This document shows positions 3,816 to 21,637 of a stretch of DNA of 24,000 nucleotides, piece by piece. The notes beneath the pieces are model-generated. The model was given only the letters and a program-made list of their open reading frames with translations. It was not told the origin of the DNA and searched no databases. The stretch spans positions 1 through 24,000 of the forward strand of contig CALRBD010000006.1 in assembly GCA_943353855.1 (NCBI GenBank), in the 5' to 3' direction. Source of the stretch: an uncultured Candidatus Saccharimonas sp. (lineage in GTDB: Bacteria; Patescibacteriota; Saccharimonadia; Saccharimonadales; AWTP1-31). Numbering within the stretch: the stretch's first letter is position 1; each line of letters starts with the position of its first letter. Made by a program: the position numbers and the translations under genes.

Positions 3816-4868
3816 ATGATTTCTGATTTACGGCTTCAAAGCTATCGTTCATATGGCGATGCTACTTTTGAATTTGGCGAAGGAGTGAACATTATCGTTG
3901 GAGCTAATGCTAGTGGTAAAACAAATCTTCTTGAAGCTATTCTGGTTCTTTGTCGTGGATCATCTTATAGAGCTAAAGATATAGATCTTATTTCTTTTGA
4001 TGCACCATGGACTAGGTTAGATATGACAACTCAAGACGGAAAACGGACTGTCACATTAGAACGTAAAGATACTAACTCTGAAAAAAAGTATGTAATTCAA
4101 TCAGTACCACTTAAACGCCTTGTTTTAAATAAAACGATTCCAGTTGTAGTCTTTGAGCCAGACCACCTGCGACTACTGAGTGGTGGACCTGAAAGACGTC
4201 GAGAATATATAGATGGAATACTAGAACAAACAATTACCGGATATGCGACTCTGAGGCGAGAGTATAAAAGAACATTAGCTCAACGAAATAGATTACTTAA
4301 AAGTATGTATATAAATAATGATGAAATGTTCGTCTGGAACGTACGTCTGTCTGAGTTGGCAGGAAAAATAGTTCTATACCGTACTATCCTCATCGATAAG
4401 CTTCAAGAAGAGATTTCAGATATATATCAATCTCTTTCTAAAACTAATAATGAGATAACGATTAATTACTTAAGTAGCTGTAATATTTCTAATTACTCTA
4501 CGGATCTAATGAAACATCTCGAACAGAACATAGACGAGGATAAACAACGCGGCTTTACGTCATATGGGCCGCATAGAGACGATATTATTATAAAAATAGA
4601 TTCACACCCAGCTGCGATTAGTGCGTCCCGTGGAGAGAGTCGTACGATCTTATTAACACTAAAAATTCTCGAACTAAAAATTATAGAAAAAAGCCGGAAC
4701 AAGAAACCTATTTTTCTACTTGATGATGTCTTTAGTGAATTAGATGGTTCAAGACGTAAAGCCTTAACAAACTATCTTCAAGACTACCAAACGTTTATAA
4801 CAACTACAGACGCCGACATAGTCGTACATCACTTTATGGATAAGTGTAGAATTATACCGATTACCTAA
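3816..4868 (+). CDS. recF: DNA replication and repair protein RecF
   Basis: 350-aa ORF with an N-terminal Walker A (GANASGKTNLLEAI), an SMC-like signature region (SRGESRTILLTLKI) and Walker B (IFLLDDVFSELD). Canonical dnaA-dnaN-recF order. Confidence 0.9.
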   Translation: MISDLRLQSYRSYGDATFEFGEGVNIIVGANASGKTNLLEAILVLCRGSSYRAKDIDLISFDAPWTRLDMTTQDGKRTVTLERKDTNSEKKYVIQSVPLKRLVLNKTIPVVVFEPDHLRLLSGGPERRREYIDGILEQTITGYATLRREYKRTLAQRNRLLKSMYINNDEMFVWNVRLSELAGKIVLYRTILIDKLQEEISDIYQSLSKTNNEITINYLSSCNISNYSTDLMKHLEQNIDEDKQRGFTSYGPHRDDIIIKIDSHPAAISASRGESRTILLTLKILELKIIEKSRNKKPIFLLDDVFSELDGSRRKALTNYLQDYQTFITTTDADIVVHHFMDKCRIIPIT

Positions 4869-5446
4869 TCTACCAAGTTTTCATTGTTAATTGGAGGAGG
4901 ATTAGTCACTATACCTGAATCAAACACGAGTTTCGTTCCTTGGTTTAGTTTAAGTTGAATATCTGCAACTCCAGAGTATGTGACTACGGCAGATAATTTT
5001 TCTTTCCTTTGGATGAGTGTATCGAAGGATATAGATGGATTACCGCCTGTTTCTCTATCGATTGGATTAGAGGTAACAGAGTCTACGTAGACACTAACTT
5101 CTTTTTTACCGTTATCGCCTTTACCTAAGTAAGTATTGAAGGCAATTTTTAAATTGGTAAGTTGATCCTGAGAAAGCCCGTATTGAATCAATTTACCAAA
5201 ACCTAAAAATACCGGCTCAGTCGATGCATTATCTTCAAGTATTTCAGGAGTCTTATCTGCCTTATCGTCAATAGTTTCTTTTGATGCAGGATCGTAGTAT
5301 ACATCCGTTTTGTTTTGTGTTTCTTTACCTAGGAATGACACAAATAATACAATAAGCCCAATAACTATAAAAGCCCCAATCGCTATACCTATTTTTTTAT
5401 TCCTGGAAAGATTAACATTCTCTTGAAAATTACTTAGTAATTGCAT
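4865..5446 (-). CDS. hypothetical bitopic membrane protein, last gene of the T4SS-like operon (possible VirB8/PrgL analogue)
   Basis: 193-aa ORF with a short N-terminus, one TM helix (IGIAIGAFIVIGLIVLFVSFL) and an extracytoplasmic domain of about 150 aa. Its start overlaps the upstream gene by 17 nt. Its stop overlaps the recF stop by 4 nt. Confidence 0.6.
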   Translation of the reverse strand: MQLLSNFQENVNLSRNKKIGIAIGAFIVIGLIVLFVSFLGKETQNKTDVYYDPASKETIDDKADKTPEILEDNASTEPVFLGFGKLIQYGLSQDQLTNLKIAFNTYLGKGDNGKKEVSVYVDSVTSNPIDRETGGNPSISFDTLIQRKEKLSAVVTYSGVADIQLKLNQGTKLVFDSGIVTNPPPINNENLVD

Positions 5447-6686
5447 AAGTACTACCTCCTGGCATTGCGCTTAATATTTGTTGAGGATCCCATTCTTGCG
5501 TATTGGCAGCTTCATGTGCTGAATCTCCCACTAGTAATTTACCTGAGGCTGTAACTGCCCGAATAACGATATAGTGTCCACCTTTACTGAAAGGCACTGG
5601 ACCTTTACCTGAAGTTATAACTAGTCCACCAGCTTGCAAAGTTTGAGTTATTCTTGCAAGATCTTTTCCTATTGGTGTTGCTTTTAGTCCCCAGTTTTGA
5701 GCTAAGACTGGCGCTATACTCCATGAGCTTCCTGAGCCTGGTATGTATAGTCCTTTACTAGCAGCAAAGTTTGCAGTTTCTGGCGGCTTTACGCTTTTAC
5801 CTGTTAAGTTAGTTATAATCATTGCCATTGCGGAAGGCCCACAGCCTGACTCACCAATCGTGCTGGAAGAGTATGGCAAATTCCTCCAGGCTGGATCGTA
5901 CTGACTATAAACTGTAAAACCATCTATATATTTTGTGTTTTCTCCGGCTCCTGTTGCAGGTCCACAATTAGCACTTGGCGATTCTGTAGATGAAGTAGTT
6001 GTAGTGCCTTGTACTGCCCCACCGTATGTAGCAAGCGTCTTATTACCTGCATCAATACGTTTCGCCAAACCCTGAACATTAGTTAAGGGTACTTTACTGG
6101 TACTACCATCAATAATTGCGACCTCAAAGAACCTACCCCAATACCAAGCTGAAAGATCTACAGATGGCTGCGGCTTAATACCTTCGATATTACCCCTACT
6201 CTCAGCCTCATACCAAGCAAACTGCAATTGACCGTCAAGCGATAGCGGATCTAAATTCTTTTCAGCTGTCCATTTCTTTAGGTTCGCAAACCTACCTTTG
6301 GTATCCCACTGGAACATTCCTGAAAAACCACCGCTCTTAGAGACTGAGTTTGGGTTAACGCCTGATTCAGCAATTGCATTTCCAGTTATTCCCGCAGCTT
6401 GTTCTTTCGTGAGACCTTTTGATACAAAAAACCTGAATGTTTTTTCGGTGTTGTCGTTACCATTTAGGTCTATCGACACTGCACTATCAGGCACAGAACA
6501 TTTAGCCTCTACTGCACAACTGAGGTTAATTGCTCCAATATTTCTCAAATAACTTTGATCACATTGCCTATCCGTTAGTGCGAATGCAGCCCTCGGTACA
6601 AGTGCTGAAATACTGAAAACACTAATAAACATTAATATCTTAAGTGTCTTGAGAATATTTAATAAATATTTATGGTAGTACTTCAT
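5430..6686 (-). CDS. secreted two-domain cell-wall hydrolase: phage-tail-lysozyme-like domain plus C39-like papain-fold cysteine peptidase domain
   Basis: Signal-peptide-like N-terminus (MKYYHKYLLNILKTLKILMFISVFSISALVPRAAFA). Residues about 90-230 (GLTKEQAAGITGNAIAESGVNP...GMFQWD...LDGQLQFAWYE) look like the Phage_tail_lysozyme family. A Thr/Ser linker follows. Then comes a C39_2-like domain with catalytic-looking Cys (GESGCGPSAMAMI) and His (GGHYIVI). I chose the start at the ATG 6686-6684. The ATG at 6632 is an alternative. Confidence 0.8.
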   Translation of the reverse strand: MKYYHKYLLNILKTLKILMFISVFSISALVPRAAFALTDRQCDQSYLRNIGAINLSCAVEAKCSVPDSAVSIDLNGNDNTEKTFRFFVSKGLTKEQAAGITGNAIAESGVNPNSVSKSGGFSGMFQWDTKGRFANLKKWTAEKNLDPLSLDGQLQFAWYEAESRGNIEGIKPQPSVDLSAWYWGRFFEVAIIDGSTSKVPLTNVQGLAKRIDAGNKTLATYGGAVQGTTTTSSTESPSANCGPATGAGENTKYIDGFTVYSQYDPAWRNLPYSSSTIGESGCGPSAMAMIITNLTGKSVKPPETANFAASKGLYIPGSGSSWSIAPVLAQNWGLKATPIGKDLARITQTLQAGGLVITSGKGPVPFSKGGHYIVIRAVTASGKLLVGDSAHEAANTQEWDPQQILSAMPGGSTYAITK

Positions 6687-9600
6687 AGCCCTGGTATAGT
6701 CCTTTTGAAATATCAATAAATCTTGCTTTTACATCAGCCGAACAAGCATCTCTACTGCATTGGGCCCTACCCTTACCTTTCATAGCATCAAAATGTAGAT
6801 GCGGTGGTGAATTACAGGCAGCCGGCGATGATCCTACGACCCCAATCTTATCTCCTGGTTTTAATACTGCACCTTTAGCTACGCCTCCTGCACCAGGATC
6901 CATATGTTGATAGAAATACGTAGCATCATTCACAGAATCATATACTGTAACAGTGAATGCTGATCCAAAACCGTGGCCACAATCACCTTTATCGGCCTTT
7001 AATACCGTTCCAGAGGAGGCTGCAAGAACTGGTGTACCTGGAGCTGCAAATAGATCATGTGCTTTATACTTATGGCCAGCATCACATATTGATTTTTGAG
7101 CTATCTGTAGACATGAACCGAGAGAGCTTTGAACCTGTGCTTTAGATTGCTGAAGCGGCCAAGTTAGTCCCGCTGACACGCCAGCACCTGCAGCTGGAGG
7201 AGGCCCTAATTGTGAAATAAGAAAAGTAGACTTTGCGGCATAGCCCGCACCGTTTAAATGTATTCCATCACCAGCACCAGGATATTTGGCTTTGTTTTTC
7301 GCGTATTCAGAACTCCAATCAATAACCTTGAATTTTAATGCCAATGATTGAAGAAGTAAGCTAGAATTGTCCGCCGCATAGTCTTGTTTATCTGTACGAG
7401 AATTCATCCAGACTATATTAGCCGTTGGATTTATCCCTCGTATAGTGTCGACCATCTGCTTTATTTTTTCTGCATATCCAGTAGACGCATTCGTACCAAG
7501 CATTACAACTACCGTTCCTGCCTGAGCTACTATTGCGCTATCTACAGTAACTTTAGTTATAGCCTGTTCAGTTCTGTCCCCAACAGTCGCTTCAATATCT
7601 GTTGAATCCCAGCCTGCAGCAGTGTATTTATCCCTTAGTCCTCCGGCATCCCGCATACCAACTGTAAGAGAATCACCAACCGTGTAGACTTTATTGTTAC
7701 CCGATCCTATAGCTGCCGAGTCTGCTGCAGATGGAGTATCTATATCTTCAGGAAAGAACTCAGCCTCAAACGCATCTGTTGTATCTAGATAAGCTAGGTG
7801 AGCCTTGAATTGCTTAGTCTGCTGCTTTTCTGCAAGGCAGTCAGACTCATCGGATTCCTCGATCTGCGTAAGTATATCGGTATTTTCTACACAATTTTCA
7901 ACATGTCTCGCAAAGGCGCTGCCCTCAATTGGTAGCAGGGTCTGGGCGTCGATCTGATTATCCGCAATTAAGGCATCGGAGTTAGGCTCAGGATCAATTG
8001 CTTCAATATCTGGCCGCATAATAACCTGAAGATTACCAGCAGGGTCCGTAGCTAAATCAGTTTTTTTACCATTACTTCCATTTAGCGTATAAGTATCGTA
8101 AGAAACCTCATCACCAACTTCAGCTGAAACTCTACCCGTAAATAAGTTACCCAAGGTGCTCAAGTATCTGCCTGGATTTAGTACTGAAGATGCAAGAGAC
8201 ACGGAAGCATCCTTACTACTGTTAACTAAGCCAGTAACACTTGTTGGTGTTGCTAATGCGAGATTAAACATCAGGTTGTTGGGTTGCTCCGGATTAAGTA
8301 ATTTTTCTTTAAAACTCAAATTTTTAAATTGCTCATTTCTCCAAGCTATATACTCACCTTCAGCTGCAGCGTATTGCTGAGTCGTTGCTGGCACCATACC
8401 AGCAGACAGCGACCTTTGTTTATTGGAGGCACCCGCACCGGCTACTAGAATATCTCCCAGTTGACCACCTTTCTCTTGTCCAGTAAAAGGTAGTGTGAGC
8501 TGTTTTTGAACATAAGCCTGCATGTAACCCATGAATGCCTCGAATCCAAGATTTCCAATAGCCCCTAAAGCAACTTGTTTTAATGCCTGTTTTGAAATTA
8601 TTGAAGCTACTATATCTTTTACTACCGTCTGAAGCGCTATCTTGAAAGAGCCTTCAGCAAGCAAAATAGCAACTTCACTTTGTCCGCCCGAAAAGACTCC
8701 CGCAACCACACTAGCCGCACCAGCACCTACTTGTACTATTGGGTTCTGTACGACTGGACAACCGGCTCCAAGTCCTGGGGTCCCGTCAAGCTTTTCGTTT
8801 ATTCCACCTACTACTCCAGTTAGTTTGCCGTCCACTGCTACGGATTGCTTTGTTTGTTTATTTCTGCTTTTGCTAAACTTACTCTTCATCATATATGCAA
8901 AACCTGGCGACCCCCCAATAGAATTTCCATTAGAATCCTCTGACATAACACGCTTCATAAGTGAATTAAGAAGCTTGGGGTCAGCGTTTCCTCGTCTTGT
9001 ATCGTCTGCTGCATTAATGAAAACCATAGCATAGCGGATAAGTTTAATGGATCTTGCAGCCCTAGCTAACTGTATAGCGGTCTGTGCACGCTTCTTTATA
9101 GTGCAGACTTTATCTAATATATCTAGTGGGTTTAGTAACCCCTTAGCTCCTGCGGTAAATTTTGATCCAAAGGAAACGCTTGCAGCTCCATTTTCTAGAC
9201 TTTCTTGAAGGGCTTCATCTATAGTCCCAGATGCAATTCCCGCAGCAATACCTTTAGTGTTTACATCTGCACCTTCAGTAAGTATAGCTTTACGTTCGGC
9301 ATCTAGCTCTTCAGTAAGTGCTCCGCCAGTATCATTGGCTTTTGCTGCTCGTTCTTCATAGGATTGTTTTTCTTCTGGTGTCTTACCATCCGTATCATTT
9401 GTAGTATTAATTGCGTCTATCTCCCCTTTTTTATTGGGGTCAAGTACTTCCGTAGCAACATTTTTATTAACCTGATTATTTGCTGGAAGATCTTTGTCAG
9501 GACTATTTTTTGCTTTTGCTGCATCTATAACTGAGGTACTTGTAACACCATATATCTTTTTAAAAGCATTCATCCGTTTAGTTTTCCAACGCGAGGATCT

Positions 9601-10221
9601 AAATGGATGTCTTTGGTCCATCCATGCCTCCACATTATCGCCTATAGCATTTCCAATAAGGCCGTTTGCTCCTCTAGATGTCTGAAGACCTATGAGTGAA
9701 CCTTTCTTGTAACTTAATATATAGCCATCTGCCGCTAGCTCGTCTACCATCTTATTGGCCATGCGACCACCAGGTTTAAAGAAATTTTTCATCTTAGGAA
9801 TTTTCCCTTGCCGATATTTTCTTTGCTGGTACATTTGCACATTGCCAATCCGGCCAATGAGCATTTCCTTGAGCTGGTTGACTAGTAAGTTTGGAATTTG
9901 TAAGAAAATTAATATAAATCCAGTGATTAATGAAGAAGCGATACCAAAACCAATTGCTGCTCTTTTTTTGGAAAGCCTTGATTTAAAGGAATTACCTTTC
10001 GGCTTCCCTGGTTTGTATAACGAGCCCCCTTCGGATTTGTCTGCTTTAGTTGAAGAGGACTTCGCTCCCGATTTTTCCTTAGCTTGAATGTCTTTCGATG
10101 ACATGGCATCACTAGAAGATCCTTCATCCCCAGTTTCGCTTGTTTTGTCTAGGGACGTTTTCCAAGCGGGCTTATCCTCGTCGTAGATTCCTGCATTTCG
10201 TTCTTCTAGATCTGTCGCCAT
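6670..10221 (-). CDS. 1183-aa membrane-anchored multidomain protein with C-terminal SGNH/GDSL hydrolase and M23 (LytM) metallopeptidase domains
   Basis: Acidic/Ser-rich N-terminus of about 85 aa, one TM helix (AAIGFGIASSLITGFILIFLQIP) and a region of about 730 aa with no recognisable family. The SGNH domain (nt 7207-7698) has blocks GDS (VGDSLT), GxN (LGTNA) and DxxH (DGIHLN). The M23 domain (nt about 6673-7090) has HxxxD (HKYKAHD) and HxH (HLHF) motifs. The gene starts 3 nt after the virB4 stop. Confidence 0.85.
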   Translation of the reverse strand: MATDLEERNAGIYDEDKPAWKTSLDKTSETGDEGSSSDAMSSKDIQAKEKSGAKSSSTKADKSEGGSLYKPGKPKGNSFKSRLSKKRAAIGFGIASSLITGFILIFLQIPNLLVNQLKEMLIGRIGNVQMYQQRKYRQGKIPKMKNFFKPGGRMANKMVDELAADGYILSYKKGSLIGLQTSRGANGLIGNAIGDNVEAWMDQRHPFRSSRWKTKRMNAFKKIYGVTSTSVIDAAKAKNSPDKDLPANNQVNKNVATEVLDPNKKGEIDAINTTNDTDGKTPEEKQSYEERAAKANDTGGALTEELDAERKAILTEGADVNTKGIAAGIASGTIDEALQESLENGAASVSFGSKFTAGAKGLLNPLDILDKVCTIKKRAQTAIQLARAARSIKLIRYAMVFINAADDTRRGNADPKLLNSLMKRVMSEDSNGNSIGGSPGFAYMMKSKFSKSRNKQTKQSVAVDGKLTGVVGGINEKLDGTPGLGAGCPVVQNPIVQVGAGAASVVAGVFSGGQSEVAILLAEGSFKIALQTVVKDIVASIISKQALKQVALGAIGNLGFEAFMGYMQAYVQKQLTLPFTGQEKGGQLGDILVAGAGASNKQRSLSAGMVPATTQQYAAAEGEYIAWRNEQFKNLSFKEKLLNPEQPNNLMFNLALATPTSVTGLVNSSKDASVSLASSVLNPGRYLSTLGNLFTGRVSAEVGDEVSYDTYTLNGSNGKKTDLATDPAGNLQVIMRPDIEAIDPEPNSDALIADNQIDAQTLLPIEGSAFARHVENCVENTDILTQIEESDESDCLAEKQQTKQFKAHLAYLDTTDAFEAEFFPEDIDTPSAADSAAIGSGNNKVYTVGDSLTVGMRDAGGLRDKYTAAGWDSTDIEATVGDRTEQAITKVTVDSAIVAQAGTVVVMLGTNASTGYAEKIKQMVDTIRGINPTANIVWMNSRTDKQDYAADNSSLLLQSLALKFKVIDWSSEYAKNKAKYPGAGDGIHLNGAGYAAKSTFLISQLGPPPAAGAGVSAGLTWPLQQSKAQVQSSLGSCLQIAQKSICDAGHKYKAHDLFAAPGTPVLAASSGTVLKADKGDCGHGFGSAFTVTVYDSVNDATYFYQHMDPGAGGVAKGAVLKPGDKIGVVGSSPAACNSPPHLHFDAMKGKGRAQCSRDACSADVKARFIDISKGLYQGYEVLP

Positions 10222-10223
10222 AA

Positions 10224-13090: not shown

Positions 13091-13120
13091 ATATTTGTTT
13101 GCTACCCACCCGCTCTAGTA

Positions 13121-14107: not shown

Positions 14108-14167
14108 TTACTTATATATTAGCAAAGTTTTAGTGCTCTAAGTAGAGTATTACAAAAAAACCATAAG

Positions 14168-15007: not shown

Positions 15008-15056
15008 AATATTTCCATACTAACATCATTAATAATTAGTACAAATAATCCTTTTT

Positions 15057-18000
15057 CTAAGACTTGATTTCCGAGCTTATTACTACTGAACTTCGCTTCT
15101 TAAATTCAGCATAAGTAATAAAATCTATGTCAATACGAGAGTAGTAGACCTTATAATATCCCCATTTATCTACAGTTACTGCTTCTGGATATTGTTTGGC
15201 TATTTCTTGAGCAATAACACCAACATACTCAACTTCACTCCATAGGTACTTATATCTATATACTTTAATGCCAGAATCGTTGGTGTAAAAGTATTTAATC
15301 TCTTTTTTGAGCCGACGATCACTCGTAGTTGGCTGGCTAGAAGTTCTAGATCGCATGGTAGGATCAATAAGCTCTGCAACACGACCGTTGGATAGAATAC
15401 TCATTCTTCCTGCACGACTTGGATCTGTAGTATATCCAAAATGGTTTGCGAGCATTTCTGTTACAGCTGGCTGTCCCAAATCGGGATCTATGCCAAGGTC
15501 TTGCAACATACCAATCGCTTCGTCCCTACTCTCACCAAGAGAACCTTGGTATAAGCCCGTTATGAGCTCATGTCCAAATGTAAAGCTGTCTGCTCGGTCT
15601 TCATCCAGCATAGTAGGATCCATCGTGGCAACTCGTGCTGCGTCTGTTCGAACTATATCCCGTGTTGCTGCAGCCGATTCAGCGTTCGTGACCATTGCCG
15701 CTGCACCAACTCTTTTACTTGTATCCTTGTAGGCATTTCGTCTCGCTCTGTAAGTATCTGGATTTGCAGCGGCATCTCCTAAGCCTCCACCTATATCCAT
15801 TCTCTGTGCACCACGAAGGCTGAAGGCTGCCGCACCACGAAGATCTTCTTGTTCAAGTGCCGAACCGCCCATTCGCGCGATACCACGTTCAAATGATCCG
15901 ACATCACCGTTAGCAATACCCATGCCCTTATTCGCACCCATATTTGCTATTGCAGCTGCCGAGTTAGTCTTGGAGAAGCCTTGTACTGCCGCCGCCTGAT
16001 AGGCTCTATTGAATCTAGCAGTTTGGGTCGCTTCGAATTCATCCCGTGCTTGTGCGGTCGCACCCGGATTTTGTCTGTCGAAAGTTTCCATCTGGCCTCT
16101 TACAAGATCGTTTACGGCTTCTCTTCCGCCCGCAGTAGTTCCTCCAGAAAGGGCGCTCACAGTTGCAGCCTCGCCATCTCTAGTAAGAAAATTTTGGAAA
16201 GCCGGGTCTTTCGCAGCATCTCCTGAAATGTTACTTAAATTACGCTTCCTAGCTTCATTACCTTTAGTTCCTATACCAAAGCGACCGCGAGTACCTGTCG
16301 CTAATCCAGATACGCCACGGTTAAGGCCTGCCGAAATACTCTGCCCATACCTGCCGCTACGAATTAAATCTCCGGTCTTTGCATCTCTACCCATCTGAGC
16401 ATATCCTTGTTGTCGGCGCTTACGAAGCTTGTCAAGGCCTGGACGTCCAGTATCCTGAATCTTCGATGCTACTGCACCAAAAACACCGCCAGCAGCTTTA
16501 AATGTAAATGGAATAAGTGCATAAGGGATAACATAAGCAGTCAGTTTAATGATTGTTCCGTAAAGGCCAGTAAAAGCGCCGGCAGCTGAAAAAGCGAATA
16601 TACGTCCTGCTCCTATTAATGCCATTACCATTGGATACATTAGAAGAAGTTTAGTAAAATTGCTCCACCAAAACTGCCACGCTTTAGCACTACCAGGAAA
16701 AATCCATGCAAGAATAGCTAGCGGAGCGAAAAGGATTAGTACAATTATGAACATTTGTCTTGCTATTAAAGTCACAAATGCCATCAGCAAAACAAGTAAT
16801 GCGCCCCCTAGCCATGTCCCGACAATCCCTAGGGCTCCTGAAGTGGCGAATATGCTGACTGCACCTACAAAAAGTACACCACCTTGAAGTGCCCCGTCAG
16901 CCCCGTCCACTTTAAATAACGTGCTTATATTTTCGTTGCCTATGTTTCCAAAAGGAGCTTGCATTATACCTAAAAGACCTTGACCTATAGAAGTTGTGAC
17001 ATCAATAAGTAAAATACATAGCCACCATGACAGGAGTATGAATATAATTGAAGCAATCAATTTAGGGAATGCTTTTTTAACTGTGTAGGCGTCCAGGAAG
17101 CTGAGACCCAGGGCTGTGCTGATAACTATTATCATCATAGCTGCTACAAGTAACGATAGAGCGATATTTCGAAAGCCTGTCCATGCAGACTTAAGGCCAG
17201 CATTTTCTTTATATTGATTGGGTTGTAGCACCATAAGATTTTGCACTTGATCGTCAATCCAAGTAGTAGTAGAGCCAATAATATTGATAATTGGGCAACC
17301 AAACCAACCTGTTACCCCTGATTGTCCTTCGCAAGAATCGTCTGCTCCACCAGTTGTTGACCCTGAGTCGCTATTAGCTATGCCAGGAGGAATTTGATCC
17401 TTGTTGCCAGTAACCTTAGCGTAGGCTGCATAGTTGTTACTCATCCTATTACCTATATTTACACAACTTTGCTCTCCGTCTTCCACGCCATGTGTTCCGT
17501 AACCAACTGAAGCTGTTCCATTGTCATCGTTTACTGTATAAGTTTTGTCACCTATTGTTACAGTATCACTGTTTGATCCATAGACATTTGTCACAATCTT
17601 TGCACCACAGCCCTTAACGAACGCCGCCGAATAATTAAGATAAGTCATAGCCTTTTTCTCATCGTCACTTACGCCTTCATTCTGTTTCTTAATAGAAGCA
17701 TTTATCTGGTCTTTAACCTTGGCTTTAGCTGGACCTCCGGTCTTGCCGGTCAAAAAACCATCCGATTCTTTGTATGTGTAGTTTGGTACATTATTCCTAT
17801 TTATAAAATAAAGTGAATTATCATTTTTTTTAAGATTACCGGTCGAAGGGCCAGCATAAGGATTATCTCCACTATACCAACCAGTGTAACGCTTGCTGTC
17901 ACTTCCGTTTACGAGGAGAAGCTTAAACCAGGCATCTTGTCTTGAACTTTTTCCGTCCTCACAGTCCCAATCTCCATACTGTTGCTCAACTATATGGCCA

Positions 18001-18263
18001 ACTTTAACAGTGGCGCCCCCAGTACTCAGAAAGCCTTCATTAAAGGGCCCACTCCCTGCCTTGATTCCGTCAGAATTCAGCTTGTCTTGCACGCATCTAG
18101 CCATTGCTTCAAGCTTTAAAATCGTAGAGACTTTAGTAGTTAGCTGGCTTTCGTTTAATGCCGCACTGGCTTTTTGGGGTGATAATAAAGAGACTCCAAC
18201 AAAACTAAGTATAAAAACAAATGTTAGAGTTATCGATGAAATTTTGTTCATATATTTATTCAT
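15057..18263 (-). CDS. VirB6/TrbL-like polytopic T4SS channel protein with a large N-terminal ectodomain, a Gly/Ala/Arg-rich C-terminal region and a terminal S74 intramolecular-chaperone domain
   Basis: Signal/anchor sequence MNKYMNKISSITLTFVFILSFVGVSLLSPQKASA, then a Cys-containing ectodomain of about 340 aa. A block of hydrophobic helices at nt about 16415-17180 (e.g. LVLLMAFVTLIARQMFIIVLILFAPLAILAWIFPG) is typical of TrbL/VirB6. A tail of about 360 aa follows. The last 88 aa (nt 15060-15323) read SDRRLKKEIKYF...YVGVIAQEIAKQYPEAVTV...YYKVYYSRI, a good match to the endosialidase/tail-fibre chaperone (Peptidase_S74) domain. I moved the start to the ATG at 18263 because the track's GTG at 18332 overlaps a good promoter. 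Confidence 0.8.
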   Translation of the reverse strand: MNKYMNKISSITLTFVFILSFVGVSLLSPQKASAALNESQLTTKVSTILKLEAMARCVQDKLNSDGIKAGSGPFNEGFLSTGGATVKVGHIVEQQYGDWDCEDGKSSRQDAWFKLLLVNGSDSKRYTGWYSGDNPYAGPSTGNLKKNDNSLYFINRNNVPNYTYKESDGFLTGKTGGPAKAKVKDQINASIKKQNEGVSDDEKKAMTYLNYSAAFVKGCGAKIVTNVYGSNSDTVTIGDKTYTVNDDNGTASVGYGTHGVEDGEQSCVNIGNRMSNNYAAYAKVTGNKDQIPPGIANSDSGSTTGGADDSCEGQSGVTGWFGCPIINIIGSTTTWIDDQVQNLMVLQPNQYKENAGLKSAWTGFRNIALSLLVAAMMIIVISTALGLSFLDAYTVKKAFPKLIASIIFILLSWWLCILLIDVTTSIGQGLLGIMQAPFGNIGNENISTLFKVDGADGALQGGVLFVGAVSIFATSGALGIVGTWLGGALLVLLMAFVTLIARQMFIIVLILFAPLAILAWIFPGSAKAWQFWWSNFTKLLLMYPMVMALIGAGRIFAFSAAGAFTGLYGTIIKLTAYVIPYALIPFTFKAAGGVFGAVASKIQDTGRPGLDKLRKRRQQGYAQMGRDAKTGDLIRSGRYGQSISAGLNRGVSGLATGTRGRFGIGTKGNEARKRNLSNISGDAAKDPAFQNFLTRDGEAATVSALSGGTTAGGREAVNDLVRGQMETFDRQNPGATAQARDEFEATQTARFNRAYQAAAVQGFSKTNSAAAIANMGANKGMGIANGDVGSFERGIARMGGSALEQEDLRGAAAFSLRGAQRMDIGGGLGDAAANPDTYRARRNAYKDTSKRVGAAAMVTNAESAAATRDIVRTDAARVATMDPTMLDEDRADSFTFGHELITGLYQGSLGESRDEAIGMLQDLGIDPDLGQPAVTEMLANHFGYTTDPSRAGRMSILSNGRVAELIDPTMRSRTSSQPTTSDRRLKKEIKYFYTNDSGIKVYRYKYLWSEVEYVGVIAQEIAKQYPEAVTVDKWGYYKVYYSRIDIDFITYAEFKKRSSVVISSEIKS

Positions 18264-18303
18264 ATTTTTTTGAGTTAAGCGCCCAGACTTATTTGATAAA
18301 GTA

Positions 18304-18332
18304 ATTATAGTGCTTATGCATGATGCCCACAA
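18304..18332 (-). promoter_or_regulatory. candidate sigma70-type promoter of the minus-strand T4SS operon
   Basis: On the minus strand: TTGTGG (18332-18327), a 17-nt spacer, then TATAAT (18309-18304). This lies about 40 nt upstream of the ATG at 18263. Confidence 0.4.
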
Positions 18333-18384
18333 CTATTATATTAAGATAAATAAAATATATTAACAATGTATCACTAGTAAGTAA

Positions 18385-18414
18385 TTGTAATTATCATGGC
18401 CGTCTGCTTATAAT
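18385..18414 (+). promoter_or_regulatory. candidate sigma70-type promoter of the pilin operon
   Basis: TTGTAA (18385-18390), an 18-nt spacer, then TATAAT (18409-18414). This lies about 40 nt upstream of the ATG at 18455. Confidence 0.4.
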
Positions 18415-18454
18415 GAAAAGAAGCATAAATATAAAGTAGTACCAAACAATATAG

Positions 18455-18898
18455 ATGACCCTATCAAATACTAGAACAACGATATTCACGACACTGGCTA
18501 TAGTTATAGCTAGTATATTTTTAATTTTTGCGTTTTGGGCACCTACAAAAGTACAAGCTGGCGGTAATCCTGCTGATAATCCCGACACTGCACAGCCTAC
18601 TGATGTGCCTCCTAAAAGAACAGACCCGACTGCTGAATGCCAAAAAGGAATAGAAGATTATGAAACCTGCGGCGTTACAAGAAATATAGTCCTGTTGATC
18701 AATGTTTTATCTGCGACACTTGGAGTTGTGGTTACCGCAGTCATTATTATTGCAGGAATACAATACTCAGCTTCAGCGGGTAATCCACAGGCCGCTGCTG
18801 CTGCTCGTCAAAGAATTGTTAATGCTGCCCTTGCACTATTATTTTTTGCAGGAATGTATGGTTTTCTACAGTGGATTGTGCCTGGAGGATTACTATGA
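18455..18898 (+). CDS. VirB2/TrbC-like T4SS pilin paralog 1
   Basis: 147 aa. Signal/anchor sequence ending VQA, a variable region with a Cys pair (AECQKGIEDYETCG), then a two-helix hairpin with the loop motif GIQYSASAGNP shared in variant form by the five downstream genes. Confidence 0.75.
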   Translation: MTLSNTRTTIFTTLAIVIASIFLIFAFWAPTKVQAGGNPADNPDTAQPTDVPPKRTDPTAECQKGIEDYETCGVTRNIVLLINVLSATLGVVVTAVIIIAGIQYSASAGNPQAAAAARQRIVNAALALLFFAGMYGFLQWIVPGGLL

Positions 18899-19356
18899 AG
18901 CGGTTAGGCTTTTTTTCAATAACCTTGTTAACTATGTGCCTTGTTTTTACAGTTACACCTAAGGTCCAAGCTGCCGTAGCTCCTGGTTGCGATAAGAGCT
19001 CCGCATTCCTCGGGATGCCTGTTTGGTATAAATACCTTGATGTTGGACCAGAAACATTACAAGATAATAAAGTCGACCCATGCGCAATAACAGGGCCAAA
19101 GAATGCTGAAGGTGGATTAGACATCCAGAAGGCGATTCCCCGAGTTGGTCTTGCGGTAGTTGAAATATTATTAAGAATTGCTGGAATGGTAGCCGTAGCT
19201 TTTGTAATATACGGAGGTTTTAAGTTCGTTACTAGCCAAGGTGAACCTGAAGCCTACAAGACAGCTCAACGAACAATAATTAACGCATTGATAGGTGTCG
19301 CAATTTCGGTCCTAGCGGTAACCATTGTTAGTGTTATTGGAGGGGCGATATTATGA
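18895..19356 (+). CDS. VirB2/TrbC-like T4SS pilin paralog 2
   Basis: Start moved to the ATG at 18895 (GGAGGA at 18884-18889, ATGA overlap with paralog 1). Signal peptide MKRLGFFSITLLTMCLVFTVTPKVQA, a Cys pair (APGCDKS...VDPCAI) and a hairpin with GGFKFVTSQGEP. Confidence 0.8.
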   Translation: MKRLGFFSITLLTMCLVFTVTPKVQAAVAPGCDKSSAFLGMPVWYKYLDVGPETLQDNKVDPCAITGPKNAEGGLDIQKAIPRVGLAVVEILLRIAGMVAVAFVIYGGFKFVTSQGEPEAYKTAQRTIINALIGVAISVLAVTIVSVIGGAIL

Positions 19357-19655
19357 TCCATCGTTTAACCCATTTCAAGCAAATAGCACAGACTGTAATT
19401 GACTCTAAAAAATTAAATATTCCACAAAAAGGATTAACTAATGATACAGTAGACAACATTTCGAAAATTGTCTTTGGTACGCTAGGTGCTGTAGCGCTTA
19501 TTATCATTATTATCGCTGGCATTAAATTTATGACATCACAAGGTAATCCAGAAGCCCTTGCCAAGGCGCGCAATACTATAATCTATGCGGCAGTCGGACT
19601 GGCAGTAGCAGTTGGAGCCTTCAGTATCGTTACGTTTGTAATAGGTAGACTGTAG
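19353..19655 (+). CDS. VirB2/TrbC-like T4SS pilin paralog 3 (short form, no signal peptide, no Cys)
   Basis: 100 aa with an ATGA overlap with paralog 2. Hydrophilic N-terminus (MIHRLTHFKQIAQTVIDSKKLNIPQKG), then the conserved hairpin with AGIKFMTSQGNP. Confidence 0.75.
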   Translation: MIHRLTHFKQIAQTVIDSKKLNIPQKGLTNDTVDNISKIVFGTLGAVALIIIIIAGIKFMTSQGNPEALAKARNTIIYAAVGLAVAVGAFSIVTFVIGRL

Positions 19656-20078
19656 ATGAAGAAATATATATCTATTATCGCTGCATTTTTTTTACTCACG
19701 TCTCTTAGTACTGGAAACGTGTTTGCAGCCGTCGTGGATCCTCCTGCGGGGTACGCGGGCCCTTACGCAGAGGTTTGCGCCGATAACCCTAGCGCTACGG
19801 TCTGTCAAGATCAGGAGAAGCTTTCAACAGATACGAATACATCGCCAATATACGGTCCTGACGGTGTTCTTCCAAAAGTGGCAAACATTCTGGCTATTGC
19901 AGCGGGAATAATTGCGGTAGTAATGATCATGGTAAGTGGTCTTAAGATGATTACATCAACTGGAGATAGTAAGAAATTTGGCGATGCCCGAAACGGTATC
20001 ATATATGCCTCAGTCGGTCTGGTCATAGTTTTGATGGCAAGAGTAATAATAGAATTTATATTGAGGACAATAGCATGA
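19656..20078 (+). CDS. VirB2/TrbC-like T4SS pilin paralog 4
   Basis: 140 aa, starting immediately after the paralog 3 stop. Signal peptide MKKYISIIAAFFLLTSLSTGNVFA, a Cys pair (EVCADNPSATVCQD) and a hairpin with SGLKMITSTGDS. Confidence 0.8.
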   Translation: MKKYISIIAAFFLLTSLSTGNVFAAVVDPPAGYAGPYAEVCADNPSATVCQDQEKLSTDTNTSPIYGPDGVLPKVANILAIAAGIIAVVMIMVSGLKMITSTGDSKKFGDARNGIIYASVGLVIVLMARVIIEFILRTIA

Positions 20079-20470
20079 AATACACACAAAAATTATTAAG
20101 AGCAACTAGCATTTTTATAATGTGCCTTTTCATTATAACTCCCCATATTGCACTTGCAGCATCCGGCGCATCCAAAGATGCTTTATGTGGTGGAGCTGGA
20201 CTAGTTGGTGGTGGTACCGGTTGCACGGCTCCGCCAGGATCCTCATCAGTAGATTCAGTAATTAAAAAAAGCATAAACATCTTTAGCGCAGTAATAGGCA
20301 TAATTGCAGTAGTAATGGTCATGGTTGGAGGATTGAAATATATTACTTCACAGGGCGATGCAGCTGCTACTGCTACTGCTAAAAATACCATACTCTATGC
20401 CGCCGTTGGCCTTGTAGTTGTTGCTCTTGCTCAAGTTATTGTAAGATTTGTTCTAAGTAGGTTTTCCTAA
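20075..20470 (+). CDS. VirB2/TrbC-like T4SS pilin paralog 5
   Basis: 131 aa with an ATGA overlap with paralog 4. Signal peptide ending ALA, a Cys pair (DALCGGAGLVGGGTGCT) and a hairpin with GGLKYITSQGDA. The C-terminal helix is nearly identical to that of paralog 6. Confidence 0.8.
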   Translation: MKYTQKLLRATSIFIMCLFIITPHIALAASGASKDALCGGAGLVGGGTGCTAPPGSSSVDSVIKKSINIFSAVIGIIAVVMVMVGGLKYITSQGDAAATATAKNTILYAAVGLVVVALAQVIVRFVLSRFS

Positions 20471-20486
20471 TATGTAGCAAAACCAC

Positions 20487-20516
20487 TTGTAATTACTAAA
20501 ATAGTTATGGTATAAA
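20487..20516 (+). promoter_or_regulatory. candidate internal promoter for pilin paralog 6
   Basis: TTGTAA (20487-20492), an 18-nt spacer, then TATAAA (20511-20516) preceded by TGG (extended -10). The -35 hexamer and spacing match the candidate promoter at 18385-18414. Confidence 0.35.
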
Positions 20517-20544
20517 AATAAGTAAGATTAACGAAAGGTTCATA

Positions 20545-20955
20545 ATGATCAAGAAAATAAAAATAACTTTAATAGGACTAATGGCAGCGGCAGCATTAAT
20601 CGTTCCCCTAACTATCCCGGCTAGCGTATACGCTGAGGACATACAAAAGAGTCTATGCGGAGGTACAGACCTAACTCTTGCTAAAGATGGTGGCAACTGC
20701 ACAAACCCAGATGCCGAGCTTAAAGTAAACAACACTATTACTCTTGCTCTTAATGTATTCTCTGCAATTGTTGGTATTATTGCTGTCGTCATGATTATCG
20801 TTGGAGGTGTGAAATATATTACTTCACAGGGTGAATCCGCAAATATAACATCAGCTAAGAATACGATTCTTTATGCTCTAGTAGGACTTGTTGTGGTCGC
20901 ACTGGCTCAAGTTATCGTAAGATTTGTACTCACTCGATTCGTTGGCAATAACTAA
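20545..20955 (+). CDS. VirB2/TrbC-like T4SS pilin paralog 6
   Basis: 136 aa. Signal peptide MIKKIKITLIGLMAAAALIVPLTIPASVYA, a Cys pair (SLCGGTDLTLAKDGGNCT) and a hairpin with GGVKYITSQGES. It is separated from paralog 5 by a 74-bp spacer. Confidence 0.8.
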   Translation: MIKKIKITLIGLMAAAALIVPLTIPASVYAEDIQKSLCGGTDLTLAKDGGNCTNPDAELKVNNTITLALNVFSAIVGIIAVVMIIVGGVKYITSQGESANITSAKNTILYALVGLVVVALAQVIVRFVLTRFVGNN

Positions 20956-20997: not shown

Positions 20998-21028
20998 TAA
21001 CTAAATATCTTTATTGATACAAGCATAT

Positions 21029-21057
21029 AGAAAAGCCCCTATGTTAGGGGCTTTTCT
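21029..21057. terminator. bidirectional hairpin terminator, probably serving the minus-strand hsp20 gene
   Basis: AGAAAAGCCCCT (21029-21040), loop ATGTT, AGGGGCTTTTCT (21046-21057). This is a perfect 12-bp stem flanked by A/T runs, 20 nt beyond the hsp20 stop. Confidence 0.75.
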
Positions 21058-21076
21058 ATATGAGTTAGGAATTACC

Positions 21077-21547: not shown

Positions 21548-21608
21548 TTTAGTTATTACCCTCCACGTATCAGATATATTATTATTTCTACATTTTTGTC
21601 TTACCTGA

Positions 21609-21637
21609 AGTATACGTGAGGTATATAGGAGTCGCAA
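21609..21637 (-). promoter_or_regulatory. candidate hsp20 promoter
   Basis: On the minus strand: TTGCGA (21637-21632), a 17-nt spacer, then TATACT (21614-21609). I did not recognise a CIRCE- or HAIR-type operator. Confidence 0.35.

What the first reader, a model, noticed from the sequence alone, without database searches (positions are those of the whole stretch)
4865..20955. oriC-adjacent T4SS-like locus with no relaxase or coupling protein, mixing monoderm-type and diderm-type parts
Seen in sequence: two divergent operons fill 16 kb starting directly at the recF stop codon. The minus-strand operon has eight genes joined by overlaps or gaps under 60 nt: VirB6/TrbL-like, basic repeat protein, PrgI/VirB3-like, Pro/Gln-rich protein, VirB4, a 1183-aa hydrolase, a lysozyme/C39 hydrolase and a bitopic protein. 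The plus-strand operon encodes six VirB2/TrbC-like pilins. The only NTPase I can find is VirB4. There is no VirD4-type coupling ATPase, relaxase, integrase, partition or replication gene, and no flanking direct repeats. Established knowledge: conjugative T4SSs need a relaxase and a coupling protein. PrgI, giant wall hydrolases and a VirB6-like protein with a large ectodomain are hallmarks of Gram-positive-type systems. VirB2 pilins are classically a diderm feature. Inference: this is a chromosomally fixed, non-conjugative contact, injection or uptake apparatus. In an epibiotic CPR bacterium it could mediate attachment to, or exchange with, the host cell. The exact gene set is not a standard described T4SS architecture.
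Basis: partly seen in the sequence, partly recalled or inferred. Interest (0 to 1): 0.85.

Follow-up and report, generated by a model that had tools for sequence, protein, structure and literature searches.

The report
Known Saccharibacteria type IV secretion locus
This is the chromosomal type IV secretion system with a six-gene pilin array that all Saccharibacteria carry next to dnaA-dnaN-recF; it has been described since 2020 and shown essential for epibiotic growth in 2023, so the reading is correct but not new.

Summary
Fourteen genes in two divergent operons fill 4865-20955, starting at the recF stop. The minus operon holds a VirB4 ATPase, a TrsD-like protein that is in effect a detached VirB4 N-domain, PrgI/VirB3, a VirB6-like polytopic protein, two multi-domain wall hydrolases, a bitopic protein and an orphan basic protein. 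The plus operon holds six VirB2-type pilins. The window has no relaxase, coupling protein, integrase or flanking repeats.

The locus is not novel. It is the ortholog of SEML1_0006-0019 of Southlakia epibionticum ML1, which has the same gene order, sizes, six pilins and Hsp20 neighbour. That locus was described by McLean 2020, shown essential by Tn-seq in Wang 2023, and surveyed phylum-wide by Quinonero-Coronel 2025. Those papers already report the missing relaxase and T4CP, the mix of monoderm and diderm parts, and the position near dnaA.

My scan found recF-dnaN next to the locus in 47 of 47 full-length Saccharimonadales loci, with VirB4 79-98% identical.

The function is still unknown. I favour a T4CP-independent conduit to the host.

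Three small points appear to be unreported: a self-cleaving Peptidase_S74 domain at the VirB6-like C-terminus, a hypervariable cassette carrying the basic orphan gene, and no VirB8-like protein detected.

The parts
3816..4868 (+). recF. It marks the left boundary and is the last gene of the rnpA / dnaA-dnaN-recF replication-origin neighbourhood.
   Evidence: ORF and translation. recF and dnaN flank the T4SS in 47 of 47 full-length related loci.
4865..5446 (-). 193-aa bitopic protein of unknown role, with one TM segment at about residues 16-44 and an acidic ectodomain. Last gene of the minus operon.
   Evidence: No family hit. Only 5 homolog clusters in 5.8 billion proteins. Hits in 6 of 80 loci. 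The AlphaFold model was unusable at pLDDT 34. TM prediction.
5430..6716 (-). 428-aa exported wall hydrolase, a functional VirB1 analogue: phage-tail lysozyme domain plus a C39-like cysteine peptidase.
   Evidence: Pfam PF18013 E=5.9e-22 and PF13529 E=1.3e-12. Candidate catalytic Cys292 lies in GESGCGPS. The lysozyme part is shared with about 31 loci and the C39 part with about 9.
6670..10221 (-). 1183-aa membrane-anchored protein with a TM segment near residues 87-115, a long region of unknown fold, then an SGNH/GDSL esterase (848-996) and an M23 metallopeptidase (1053-1150).
   Evidence: Pfam PF13472 and PF01551 above threshold. Motifs GDSL(849), DGIH(985) and HLH(1141). It matches SEML1_0007 in position and size, but that protein has a different C-terminal peptidase. 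The GDSL part is shared with 19 loci and the M23 part with 2.
10224..12137 (-). VirB4-family ATPase of 637 aa. It is the only T4SS motor in the window and lacks the N-terminal domain of full-length VirB4.
   Evidence: NF045971 conju_CD1110 at 355.7 bits (cut-off 325), aligned from model position 185. Pfam P-loop_TraG, AAA_10 and DUF87. Walker A AKSGAGKS and Walker B ILIIDE. 79-98% identical in 80 Saccharimonadales loci.
12137..13090 (-). 317-aa TrsD-like protein: a Pro/Gln-rich N-terminus followed by a domain homologous to the VirB4 N-terminal domain. With the next gene it forms a split VirB4; the two genes overlap by 1 nt.
   Evidence: NF041427 TrsD E=1.4e-6, plus matches to the N-terminal positions of three VirB4 models, all below curated cut-offs. 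Precomputed PF26593 TraC-like on the near-identical L081 ortholog, which differs by 2 non-synonymous changes. Hits in 78 of 80 loci.
13121..14107 (-). PrgI/VirB3-like membrane protein of 328 aa, with a conserved 230-aa C-terminal extension.
   Evidence: PF12666 E=1.5e-11. TM hairpin at residues 24-68. Full-length conservation in about 70 loci.
14168..15007 (-). 279-aa orphan basic protein: pI 11, no TM segment, no signal peptide, two 36-aa N-terminal repeats and an Arg/Lys-rich C-terminal half. It is the variable 'slot' gene between virB6 and prgI.
   Evidence: No family hit. Only 3 relatives of similar length (279-299 aa), plus one compositional hit, in an exhaustive search of 1.84 billion proteins. 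dN/dS is 0.19 against L081 with no indels. Absent from L001. The tandem DNA repeat is at 14763-14978.
15057..18263 (-). VirB6-like 'extended' polytopic protein, 1068 aa from the ATG at 18263. It has a signal/anchor segment, a Cys-rich variable ectodomain (about residues 55-380), a conserved core of 5-6 TM segments (about 385-615), a long variable tail, and a C-terminal Peptidase_S74 self-cleaving chaperone domain (nt 15057-15323).
   Evidence: The start codon follows the 100% identical database protein P0001. The core is conserved in 62 loci. The top 5 Foldseek PDB hits are TrwI/VirB6 of R388, with probability 0.69-0.96 and E=0.02-0.16. TrbL is hit weakly in 3 of 38 orthologs. PF13884 at E=5.7e-8 and 33.4 bits against a cut-off of 22. 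SDRRLK motif at residue 1004.
18264..18454 (.). 191-nt divergent intergenic region with one promoter-like site facing each operon.
   Evidence: Sigma-70-like matches on the + strand at 18385-18414 and on the - strand at 18363-18335, 10 of 12 positions each. These are consensus matches only and are not enriched over shuffles.
18455..18898 (+). Pilin 1 (147 aa): signal peptide plus a VirB2-type hydrophobic hairpin.
   Evidence: PF18895 at 24.8 bits, just below the 26.6 cut-off. 38% identical to pilin 3. TM pattern.
18871..19356 (+). Pilin 2 (161 aa from the GTG; an ATG at 18895 is an alternative start).
   Evidence: PF18895 E=3.1e-9.
19353..19655 (+). Pilin 3 (100 aa). It is the only pilin without an N-terminal signal peptide.
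   Evidence: PF18895 E=8.8e-11 and TrbC PF04956 at 28.7 bits, above the 27.9 cut-off. N-terminus.
19656..20078 (+). Pilin 4 (140 aa).
   Evidence: PF18895 E=7.1e-10.
20075..20470 (+). Pilin 5 (131 aa).
   Evidence: PF18895 E=3.6e-12. 52-54% identical to pilins 6 and 4.
20545..20955 (+). Pilin 6 (136 aa).
   Evidence: PF18895 E=1.9e-12.
21024..21062 (.). Perfect 18-nt inverted repeat with a 3-nt loop between pilin 6 and hsp20. It is a likely bidirectional terminator and the right boundary of the locus.
   Evidence: Inverted repeat I6, 100% complementary.
21077..21637 (-). Hsp20 small heat-shock protein. It is a conserved convergent neighbour of the pilin array, and whether it belongs to the system is uncertain.
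   Evidence: PF00011 E=1.8e-19. Found beside the pilins in 40 of 80 loci. The ML1 counterpart SEML1_0020 is adjacent and essential.

Best explanation
The locus is the chromosomal, vertically inherited type IV secretion system of the class Saccharimonadia (Saccharibacteria/TM7, Patescibacteria), here in an uncultured Candidatus Saccharimonas species. It is the ortholog of SEML1_0006-0019 of Southlakia epibionticum ML1.

Shown here: the gene set, its homologies, its conserved synteny, and the absence of mobility genes in the window.

Inferred mechanism: a split VirB4 (the TrsD-like N-domain protein plus the ATPase) docks through PrgI/VirB3 onto a VirB6-like polytopic channel in the single membrane. 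Five of the six pilins are exported by Sec and processed, and all six are assembled on this platform into a VirB2-type pilus or tube. The anchored lysozyme, cysteine peptidase, M23 and SGNH hydrolases open the epibiont's own wall and possibly the host's.

The system has no relaxase and no locus-encoded coupling protein. This matches the minimal VirB2/3/4/6 logic of the known T4CP-less systems: ComB and Ced, which import, and Ptl, which exports Sec-delivered cargo. I therefore think it is most likely a T4CP-independent conduit between epibiont and host, not a conjugation machine.

My split for its role is about 0.4 for acquiring host macromolecules (nucleic acids or nucleotides), about 0.3 for delivering effectors, and about 0.15 for acting only as an adhesive pilus. 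The direction of transport is not established by anyone.
For: A VirB4 scan of 185,579 species genomes found 527 relatives. The best 80 are nearly all labelled Saccharibacteria, Saccharimonadales or Patescibacteria MAGs (a few carry only a generic 'bacterium' label and L073 is labelled Burkholderiaceae), at 79-98% identity.

The order dnaA-dnaN-recF | hydrolases-virB4-trsD-prgI-virB6 | pilins | hsp20 is conserved. recF-dnaN is adjacent in 47 of 47 full-length loci and the pilin array is present in 44 of 47.

The ML1 gene table shows the same order, gene sizes, six PF18895 pilins and Hsp20, and nearly all of these genes are essential in Tn-seq.

The phylum-wide survey reports the same features: a VirB4 clade sister to MPF_FATA, TrsD, PrgI, VirB6, pilin arrays of 2-11 genes at a mean 25% and maximum 54% identity, rare relaxases, t4cp genes usually located elsewhere, and proximity to dnaA. 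The window's pilins are 24-54% identical to each other.

There are no att-like repeats. Exposed parts diverge much faster than cytoplasmic parts between near relatives, as expected for a host-contacting surface machine.

A 2026 preprint reports tubular structures at a Patescibacteria-host interface that 'may be T4SS pili', together with uptake of host RNA. In ML1, comEC is dispensable while the T4SS is essential.
Against: The VirB6 assignment rests on weak statistics: Foldseek E=0.02-0.16, TM-scores 0.2-0.37, model pLDDT 63, and no Pfam TrbL hit on the window protein itself.

No VirB8-like (NTF2) component was found in the window, and the test on the bitopic protein failed.

The absence of a T4CP and relaxase cannot be checked beyond 24 kb. 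Strain ML1 does carry a distal, non-essential t4cp homolog.

No pilus has been shown to be made of these pilins. An older reading treated the array as Ptx-like secreted subunits. No substrate and no transport direction are known.

Nothing has been tested experimentally in this organism.
Confidence: 0.85

Rival explanations
1. The locus is an integrated conjugative element, or a decayed remnant of one, whose relaxase, coupling protein and integrase lie just outside the window.
For: The VirB4 belongs to a conjugation-type family (CD1110/CTn2). tRNA genes, which are common integration sites, lie 0.8-1.8 kb to the right. The window covers only 24 kb.
Against: The same genes sit in the same place between recF and hsp20 in 47 of 47 full-length loci from different species, which indicates vertical inheritance. 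The locus has no direct repeats or partial tRNA copies at its ends. GC content is uniform at about 0.36-0.46. The genes are essential in ML1. In the phylum-wide survey, relaxases were found in only 103 genomes and lie near virB4 in 15 cases.
Confidence: 0.03
2. The six small proteins are not pilins. They are Sec-exported toxin or effector subunits released by the T4SS in two steps, as pertussis toxin is by Ptl. This was the reading of McLean 2020.
For: Five of the six have cleavable signal peptides and variable, Cys-containing mature N-termini. The system lacks a T4CP, like Ptl.
Against: All six match the T4SS_pilin profile and four also match TrbC/VirB2. Their conserved part is the two-helix hydrophobic hairpin typical of VirB2. 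The similarity to Ptx S1 reported in the literature was 11% identity.
Confidence: 0.07
3. The apparatus is only an adhesion or host-recognition pilus with no transport role, and the pilin paralogs supply host-strain specificity.
For: The pilins and the VirB6 ectodomain are hypervariable between near relatives. Conjugative pili act mainly as attachment organelles.
Against: Saccharibacteria already use two type IV pili for adhesion and motility. The large hydrolase arsenal and the conserved VirB4/VirB6/PrgI channel parts suggest a trans-envelope conduit.
Confidence: 0.12

Closest known systems
T4SS of Southlakia epibionticum ML1 (SEML1_0006-0019; Wang et al. 2023) and the Patescibacteria-clade T4SS of Quinonero-Coronel et al. 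2025
   Same: It starts right after dnaA-dnaN-recF and has two divergent operons. The lysozyme/peptidase gene, the roughly 1100-aa hydrolase, virB4, a roughly 300-aa TrsD-like gene, prgI and a roughly 1070-aa VirB6-like gene come in the same order, followed by six PF18895 pilins and a convergent hsp20. The locus has no relaxase or T4CP.
   Different: The window has one VirB6-like gene where ML1 has two (SEML1_0011 and 0013). It has no counterpart of the NTF2-like SEML1_0012 and carries an unrelated basic orphan gene in that region. The big hydrolase ends in GDSL plus M23 domains where ML1 has a DD-peptidase-like domain. The VirB6-like protein ends in a Peptidase_S74 domain. One small gene lies next to recF, against two in ML1.
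Conjugative MPF_FATA systems of monoderms (pCF10 Prg/Pcf, pIP501 Tra, pGO1 Trs, CTn2)
   Same: It shares a VirB4 of the CD1110 family, PrgI/VirB3, TrsD, a VirB6/PrgH-like polytopic protein and multi-domain wall hydrolases comparable to PrgK/TraG. It has no outer-membrane core.
   Different: The locus has no relaxase, oriT or T4CP. No VirB8-like PrgL/TraM and no PrgB-type adhesin were found. It carries VirB2-type pilins, which those systems lack. It is chromosomal, vertically inherited and essential, not mobile.
T4CP-less T4SS relatives: H. pylori ComB (DNA uptake), archaeal Ced (DNA import), B. pertussis Ptl (toxin export)
   Same: It has a minimal VirB4 plus VirB6-like plus small membrane protein/pilin set, with no coupling protein or relaxase. 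This shows that such a set can import DNA or export Sec-delivered cargo.
   Different: There is no specific sequence relationship. The CedB and CedD models are hit only in the P-loop region, at 53 and 24 bits against cut-offs of 700 and 600. ComB and Ptl have VirB7-10 outer-membrane cores that are absent here.
Phage tail-spike / endosialidase intramolecular chaperone domain (Peptidase_S74) and eukaryotic MYRF
   Same: The C-terminal 58-residue S74 profile is matched over its full length. The Ser-x4-Lys dyad motif S-D-x-R-[LF]-K is conserved in all six S74-bearing VirB6-like tails.
   Different: Here the domain sits at the end of a polytopic T4SS membrane protein, not a tail fibre or a transcription factor. 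Self-cleavage and trimerisation are untested.

Membership tests
Patescibacteria/Saccharimonadia chromosomal T4SS (SEML1_0006-0019 type) | VirB4 ATPase related to the MPF_FATA class | tested here: met
   NF045971 CD1110-family model at 355.7 bits, above the 325 cut-off. 79-98% identical to VirB4 of 80 loci, nearly all labelled Saccharibacteria/Saccharimonadales MAGs. No phylogeny was built.
Patescibacteria/Saccharimonadia chromosomal T4SS (SEML1_0006-0019 type) | TrsD-like protein encoded next to virB4 | tested here: met
   NF041427 TrsD E=1.4e-6, plus matches to VirB4 N-terminal model positions, all below curated cut-offs. PF26593 TraC-like on the L081 ortholog. The gene overlaps virB4 by 1 nt.
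Patescibacteria/Saccharimonadia chromosomal T4SS (SEML1_0006-0019 type) | PrgI/VirB3 homolog | tested here: met
   PF12666 at 45.1 bits, above the 27 cut-off.
Patescibacteria/Saccharimonadia chromosomal T4SS (SEML1_0006-0019 type) | VirB6-like polytopic protein | tested here: inconclusive
   The five best PDB fold matches are all R388 TrwI/VirB6, but at E=0.02-0.16 and TM-scores of 0.37 or less, from a model with pLDDT 63. TrbL is hit in 3 of 38 orthologs at E>=4e-4. There is no hit on the window protein itself. Position and size match SEML1_0013, which is annotated TrbL/VirB6-like.
Patescibacteria/Saccharimonadia chromosomal T4SS (SEML1_0006-0019 type) | Adjacent array of divergent VirB2-like pilins (PF18895/PF04956) | tested here: met
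   Six genes, five of them above the PF18895 threshold. Pairwise identity is 24-54%, matching the published range.
Patescibacteria/Saccharimonadia chromosomal T4SS (SEML1_0006-0019 type) | Wall hydrolases immediately downstream of virB4 | tested here: met
   Lysozyme plus C39-like domains, and GDSL plus M23 domains.
Patescibacteria/Saccharimonadia chromosomal T4SS (SEML1_0006-0019 type) | Chromosomal position beside dnaA-dnaN-recF, conserved across the class | tested here: met
   recF-dnaN is adjacent in 47 of 47 full-length loci and dnaA lies within 10 kb in 43 of 47.
Patescibacteria/Saccharimonadia chromosomal T4SS (SEML1_0006-0019 type) | Required for epibiotic growth | not testable with these tools
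   Shown only for strain ML1 by Tn-seq.
Conjugative MPF_FATA T4SS / integrative conjugative element | Relaxase and oriT | tested here: not met
   No ORF of 60 aa or more in the window has a relaxase hit. The rest of the genome was not available.
Conjugative MPF_FATA T4SS / integrative conjugative element | VirD4/TcpA-type coupling ATPase | tested here: not met
   The only P-loop proteins in the window are DnaA, RecF and VirB4. A distal copy cannot be excluded.
Conjugative MPF_FATA T4SS / integrative conjugative element | VirB8-like (NTF2-fold) bitopic protein (PrgL/TraM/TcpC) | tested here: inconclusive
   No profile hit. The only bitopic candidate (4865-5446) gave an unusable model at pLDDT 34.
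Conjugative MPF_FATA T4SS / integrative conjugative element | Integrase and flanking att direct repeats, with patchy distribution among relatives | tested here: not met
   No integrase ORF and no flanking repeats. Synteny is universal among relatives.
Diderm MPF_T (VirB/D4) T4SS | Outer-membrane core VirB7/9/10, VirB11 ATPase and VirB5 tip protein | tested here: not met
   Pfam and NCBIfam give no hits to these proteins on any locus protein. Only the VirB2-type pilins are shared.

The most novel reading that the evidence does not exclude
The stretch from the VirB6-like C-terminal tail to the basic orphan gene (14168 to about 16400) is a strain-specific, recombining cassette. One metagenomic relative has a PrgI gene 97% identical in DNA, but its basic protein is only 30% identical and its tail only 43% identical, with a sharp break at the prgI start. 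Another relative lacks both the basic gene and the S74 tail.

The tail ends in a Peptidase_S74 self-cleaving trimerisation domain with an intact Ser-Lys motif. About a quarter of related loci carry a non-homologous but equally Arg/Lys-rich soluble protein in the same slot.

The most novel reading not excluded is that this cassette encodes the system's exchangeable cargo or cargo adaptor: a basic, nucleic-acid-binding or positively-charged-tail substrate, paired with a processed VirB6 tail. That would give the first handle on what this essential T4SS moves.
Probability: 0.12. Interest if true: 0.65.

Novelty: already known. Interest (0 to 1): 0.3.

Why it matters
This machine is one of the few systems shown to be essential for the epibiotic life of Patescibacteria, a group estimated to make up roughly a quarter of the bacterial domain. 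Its cargo and transport direction are still unknown, so the system matters. This window adds only another ortholog.

Its practical value is modest:
- It confirms the conserved core (split VirB4, PrgI, VirB6 core, pilin array) against the fast-evolving exposed parts.
- It flags a self-cleaving S74 domain and a recombining basic-protein cassette as candidates for experiments in the cultivable strains.

Tried and rejected
- The AlphaFold model of the 193-aa bitopic protein, meant to test for a VirB8/NTF2 fold, reached only pLDDT 34 and was unusable.
- A profile of 38 VirB6-like cores searched against PDB sequences gave only chance matches to the haemagglutinin HA2 fusion peptide, at E>=0.013.
- PF19590, precomputed on 13 of the 15 VirB6-like homologs, is not in the local Pfam copy and appears in no paper. 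I therefore did not use its name as evidence.
- An HMM of the four g7-family proteins found no homolog among the basic 'slot' ORFs of other loci. They resemble each other only in composition.
- PADLOC gave no defence-system hits. Rfam found only the three tRNAs.
- The ICE hypothesis was rejected because the locus has no att repeats or integrase and its synteny is universal.
- DnaA-box enrichment was not significant, so oriC itself is not located. GC skew follows gene strand and does not inform on the origin.

Full report
**What is in the window**

ORF listing and translation give this map:
- rnpA (213-554, -), dnaA (948-2426, +), dnaN (2715-3806, +) and recF (3816-4868, +).
- Eight minus-strand genes from 4865 to 18263/18332.
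- A 191-nt divergent intergenic region.
- Six plus-strand genes from 18455 to 20955.
- A perfect 18-nt hairpin at 21024-21062.
- hsp20 (21077-21637, -) and three tRNAs.

recF and the first minus-strand gene converge with a 4-nt overlap. Gaps inside the minus operon are 60 nt or less.

**Component identities**

- **VirB4 (10224-12137).** It passes the curated cut-off of NCBIfam NF045971, the CD1110/CTn2 VirB4 family (355.7 against 325 bits), and hits Pfam P-loop_TraG, AAA_10 and DUF87. Its Walker A (AKSGAGKS) and Walker B (ILIIDE) motifs are intact. The match starts at model position 185, so the N-terminal domain is missing.
- **TrsD-like protein (12137-13090).** This 317-aa protein overlaps virB4 by 1 nt. 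It hits TrsD (E=1.4e-6) and the N-terminal positions of three VirB4 models. A near-identical ortholog carries a precomputed PF26593 TraC-like hit. The pair therefore behaves as a split VirB4.
- **PrgI/VirB3 (13121-14107).** It matches PF12666 above threshold, and its 230-aa extension is conserved across about 70 loci.
- **Pilins.** All six plus-strand proteins hit PF18895 T4SS_pilin, five above threshold, and four also hit TrbC/VirB2. Five have signal peptides followed by the two-helix hydrophobic hairpin; the 100-aa third pilin has no signal peptide. Pairwise identity is 24-54%.
- **Hydrolases.** The two genes carry Phage_lysozyme2 plus a C39-like cysteine peptidase, and SGNH/GDSL plus M23 domains, with catalytic motifs present.
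- **VirB6-like protein (15057-18263).** This is the least secure call. Pfam and NCBIfam give nothing but a C-terminal Peptidase_S74 domain. TrbL is hit weakly in 3 of 38 orthologs. An AlphaFold model of the conserved 5-6-TM core (pLDDT 63) has R388 TrwI/VirB6 as its five best PDB matches, with probability 0.69-0.96, E=0.02-0.16 and TM-scores of 0.37 or less. I treat VirB6 homology as likely but formally inconclusive.
- **Unassigned proteins.** The 193-aa bitopic protein and the 279-aa basic protein have no family.

The window has no relaxase, coupling ATPase, integrase, partition or replication-initiator gene other than dnaA, and the locus has no direct repeats at its ends.

**Comparative evidence**

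A scan of one genome per species (185,579 species) with VirB4 found 527 relatives. The best 80 are nearly all labelled Saccharibacteria, Saccharimonadales or Patescibacteria MAGs, 79-98% identical. The closest is an uncultured Candidatus Saccharimonas sp..

tblastn of every window protein against these loci shows the same order in essentially all of them: dnaA-dnaN-recF | variable hydrolases - virB4 - trsD-like - prgI - VirB6-like | pilin array | hsp20.
- recF-dnaN is adjacent in 47 of 47 loci that span the full 22 kb.
- Pilins are present in 44 of 47.
- hsp20 is present in 40 of 80.

This is vertical inheritance of a fixed chromosomal locus, not a mobile element.

**It is already described**

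- McLean et al. 2020 reported the Saccharibacteria VirB4/VirB6/PrgI region with an array of 4-6 small Sec-signal proteins, conserved across the group.
- Wang et al. 2023 defined the T4SS of Southlakia epibionticum ML1 as SEML1_0006-0019, directly after dnaA, dnaN, recF and two small genes. Its gene table shows a lysozyme/cysteine-protease gene, a 1113-aa hydrolase, VirB4, a 293-aa protein, PrgI, two VirB6-like genes of about 1000 aa, an NTF2-like gene, six PF18895 pilins and then Hsp20. Almost all are essential in Tn-seq. The paper explicitly notes the pilins and the lack of coupling and relaxase proteins.
- Quinonero-Coronel et al. 2025 surveyed the phylum. They report a distinct VirB4 clade sister to MPF_FATA, with TrsD, PrgI, VirB6, VirB2-like arrays of 2-11 genes, few relaxases, t4cp genes mostly far from virB4, and proximity to dnaA, dnaN and rnpA.
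- A 2025 FEMS review presents the system as the exception among monoderm T4SSs for having pilins and being essential.

Its statement that the architecture is undescribed is wrong.

**How it most likely works (inference)**

The split VirB4 is anchored by PrgI to the VirB6-like channel. The pilins are assembled into a pilus or tube, five of them after export by Sec and processing. The hydrolases clear a path through peptidoglycan.

The locus has no T4CP or relaxase, as is also true of the importers ComB and Ced and the two-step exporter Ptl. This favours a T4CP-independent conduit over conjugation.

The field has not settled the function: 'completely unknown' according to the 2024 PNAS perspective. 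Three observations bear on it:
- The competence channel ComEC is dispensable in ML1 while the T4SS is essential.
- These organisms lack nucleotide synthesis.
- A 2026 preprint sees tubes that may be T4SS pili at a parasite-host interface, together with use of host RNA.

On this basis I lean to acquisition of host material (about 0.4) over effector delivery (about 0.3) or pure adhesion (about 0.15).

**What differs from ML1, and what I noticed**

1. The window has one VirB6-like gene, not two, and no NTF2-like (VirB8-like) gene. My attempt to test the bitopic protein failed.
2. The VirB6-like protein ends in a full-length Peptidase_S74 intramolecular-chaperone domain (33.4 against 22 bits). Its S-D-x-R-[LF]-K dyad motif is conserved in all six tails that carry the domain: the window, L013, L030, L048, L081 and L082. 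The papers I read do not mention it.
3. The 279-aa basic protein is a real gene. Against L081 its dN/dS is 0.19, with 24 synonymous and 16 non-synonymous changes and no indels. An exhaustive search of 1.84 billion proteins finds only three relatives of similar length plus one compositional hit.
4. L082 has a prgI 97.4% identical in DNA. Similarity stops at the prgI start, beyond which its basic protein is 30% identical and its VirB6 tail 43% identical. L001 (VirB4 98%) lacks both the gene and the S74 tail. This looks like cassette replacement by recombination.
5. About 14 other loci hold a soluble Arg/Lys-rich ORF of 240-470 aa in the same slot. It is not detectably homologous to the window's gene.
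6. Exposed parts evolve far faster than cytoplasmic ones. Against L081, VirB4 and TrsD are about 99% identical, the VirB6 TM core 78-98%, the VirB6 ectodomain 35-54% and the big hydrolase 74%. The hydrolase domains are shuffled between species.

**Verdict**

Interest for a scan is low to moderate. The S74 tail and the basic-protein cassette are the only leads worth passing on.

Noticed in passing
window 15057-15323 (-), C-terminal 88 aa of the VirB6-like protein: A full-length Peptidase_S74 (phage endosialidase / tail-spike intramolecular chaperone) domain with the Ser-x4-Lys self-cleavage motif SDRRLK. The same domain and motif occur on the VirB6-like tails of L013, L030, L048, L081 and L082, but not on most orthologs. 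It explains the NCBI name 'tail fiber domain-containing protein' for one homolog.
   Followed up: partly
window 14168-15007 (-); L081 2588-3427; L082 1003-1902: An orphan basic protein (pI 11) under purifying selection sits in a hypervariable cassette. L082 has a near-identical prgI (97.4% nt) but a protein only 30% identical here, with the break exactly at the prgI start. L001 lacks the gene. About 14 other loci have non-homologous Arg/Lys-rich ORFs in the same slot.
   Followed up: partly
window 14763-14978: A tandem 108-nt direct repeat (89% identical) encodes the duplicated 36-aa N-terminal motif of the basic protein.
   Followed up: no
window 12137-13090 and 10224-12137 (-): VirB4 is split. 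The ATPase aligns from position 185 of the 752-position CD1110 model, and the upstream TrsD-like protein aligns to positions 8-100. The two genes overlap by 1 nt.
   Followed up: partly
window 19353-19655 (+): The third pilin (100 aa) has no signal peptide, unlike the other five, yet it gives the best TrbC/VirB2 score. A short pilin of about 100 aa sits at the same position in L001 (99 aa) and ML1 (SEML1_0016, 312 nt).
   Followed up: no
window 21077-21637 (-): hsp20 lies convergent to the pilin operon in 40 of the 80 related loci and is adjacent and essential in ML1. It may be a dedicated chaperone for the hydrophobic pilins or simply a conserved neighbour.
   Followed up: no
window 5430-10221 compared with L001-L080: The hydrolase genes are modular. 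The lysozyme and GDSL parts are widely shared (about 31 and 19 loci), while the C39-like and M23 parts are rare (about 9 and 2 loci). ML1 has a DD-peptidase-like domain where this window has the M23 domain.
   Followed up: partly
L042 2644-4245 and 5622-6653: This locus has two VirB6-like paralogs, as strain ML1 does. The window and most other loci have one.
   Followed up: no
L073 (JAYVTZ010000002.1, 193 kb): A contig labelled 'Burkholderiaceae bacterium' MAG carries a Saccharimonadales-type VirB4 (81% identical) with prgI and the VirB6-like gene. It is probably a binning or labelling error.
   Followed up: no
window 1-3000: DnaA-box matches are not enriched over shuffles (11 against 6.7 +/- 2.8). 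The origin itself is therefore not located, and 'oriC-adjacent' rests only on the dnaA-dnaN-recF gene neighbourhood.
   Followed up: partly
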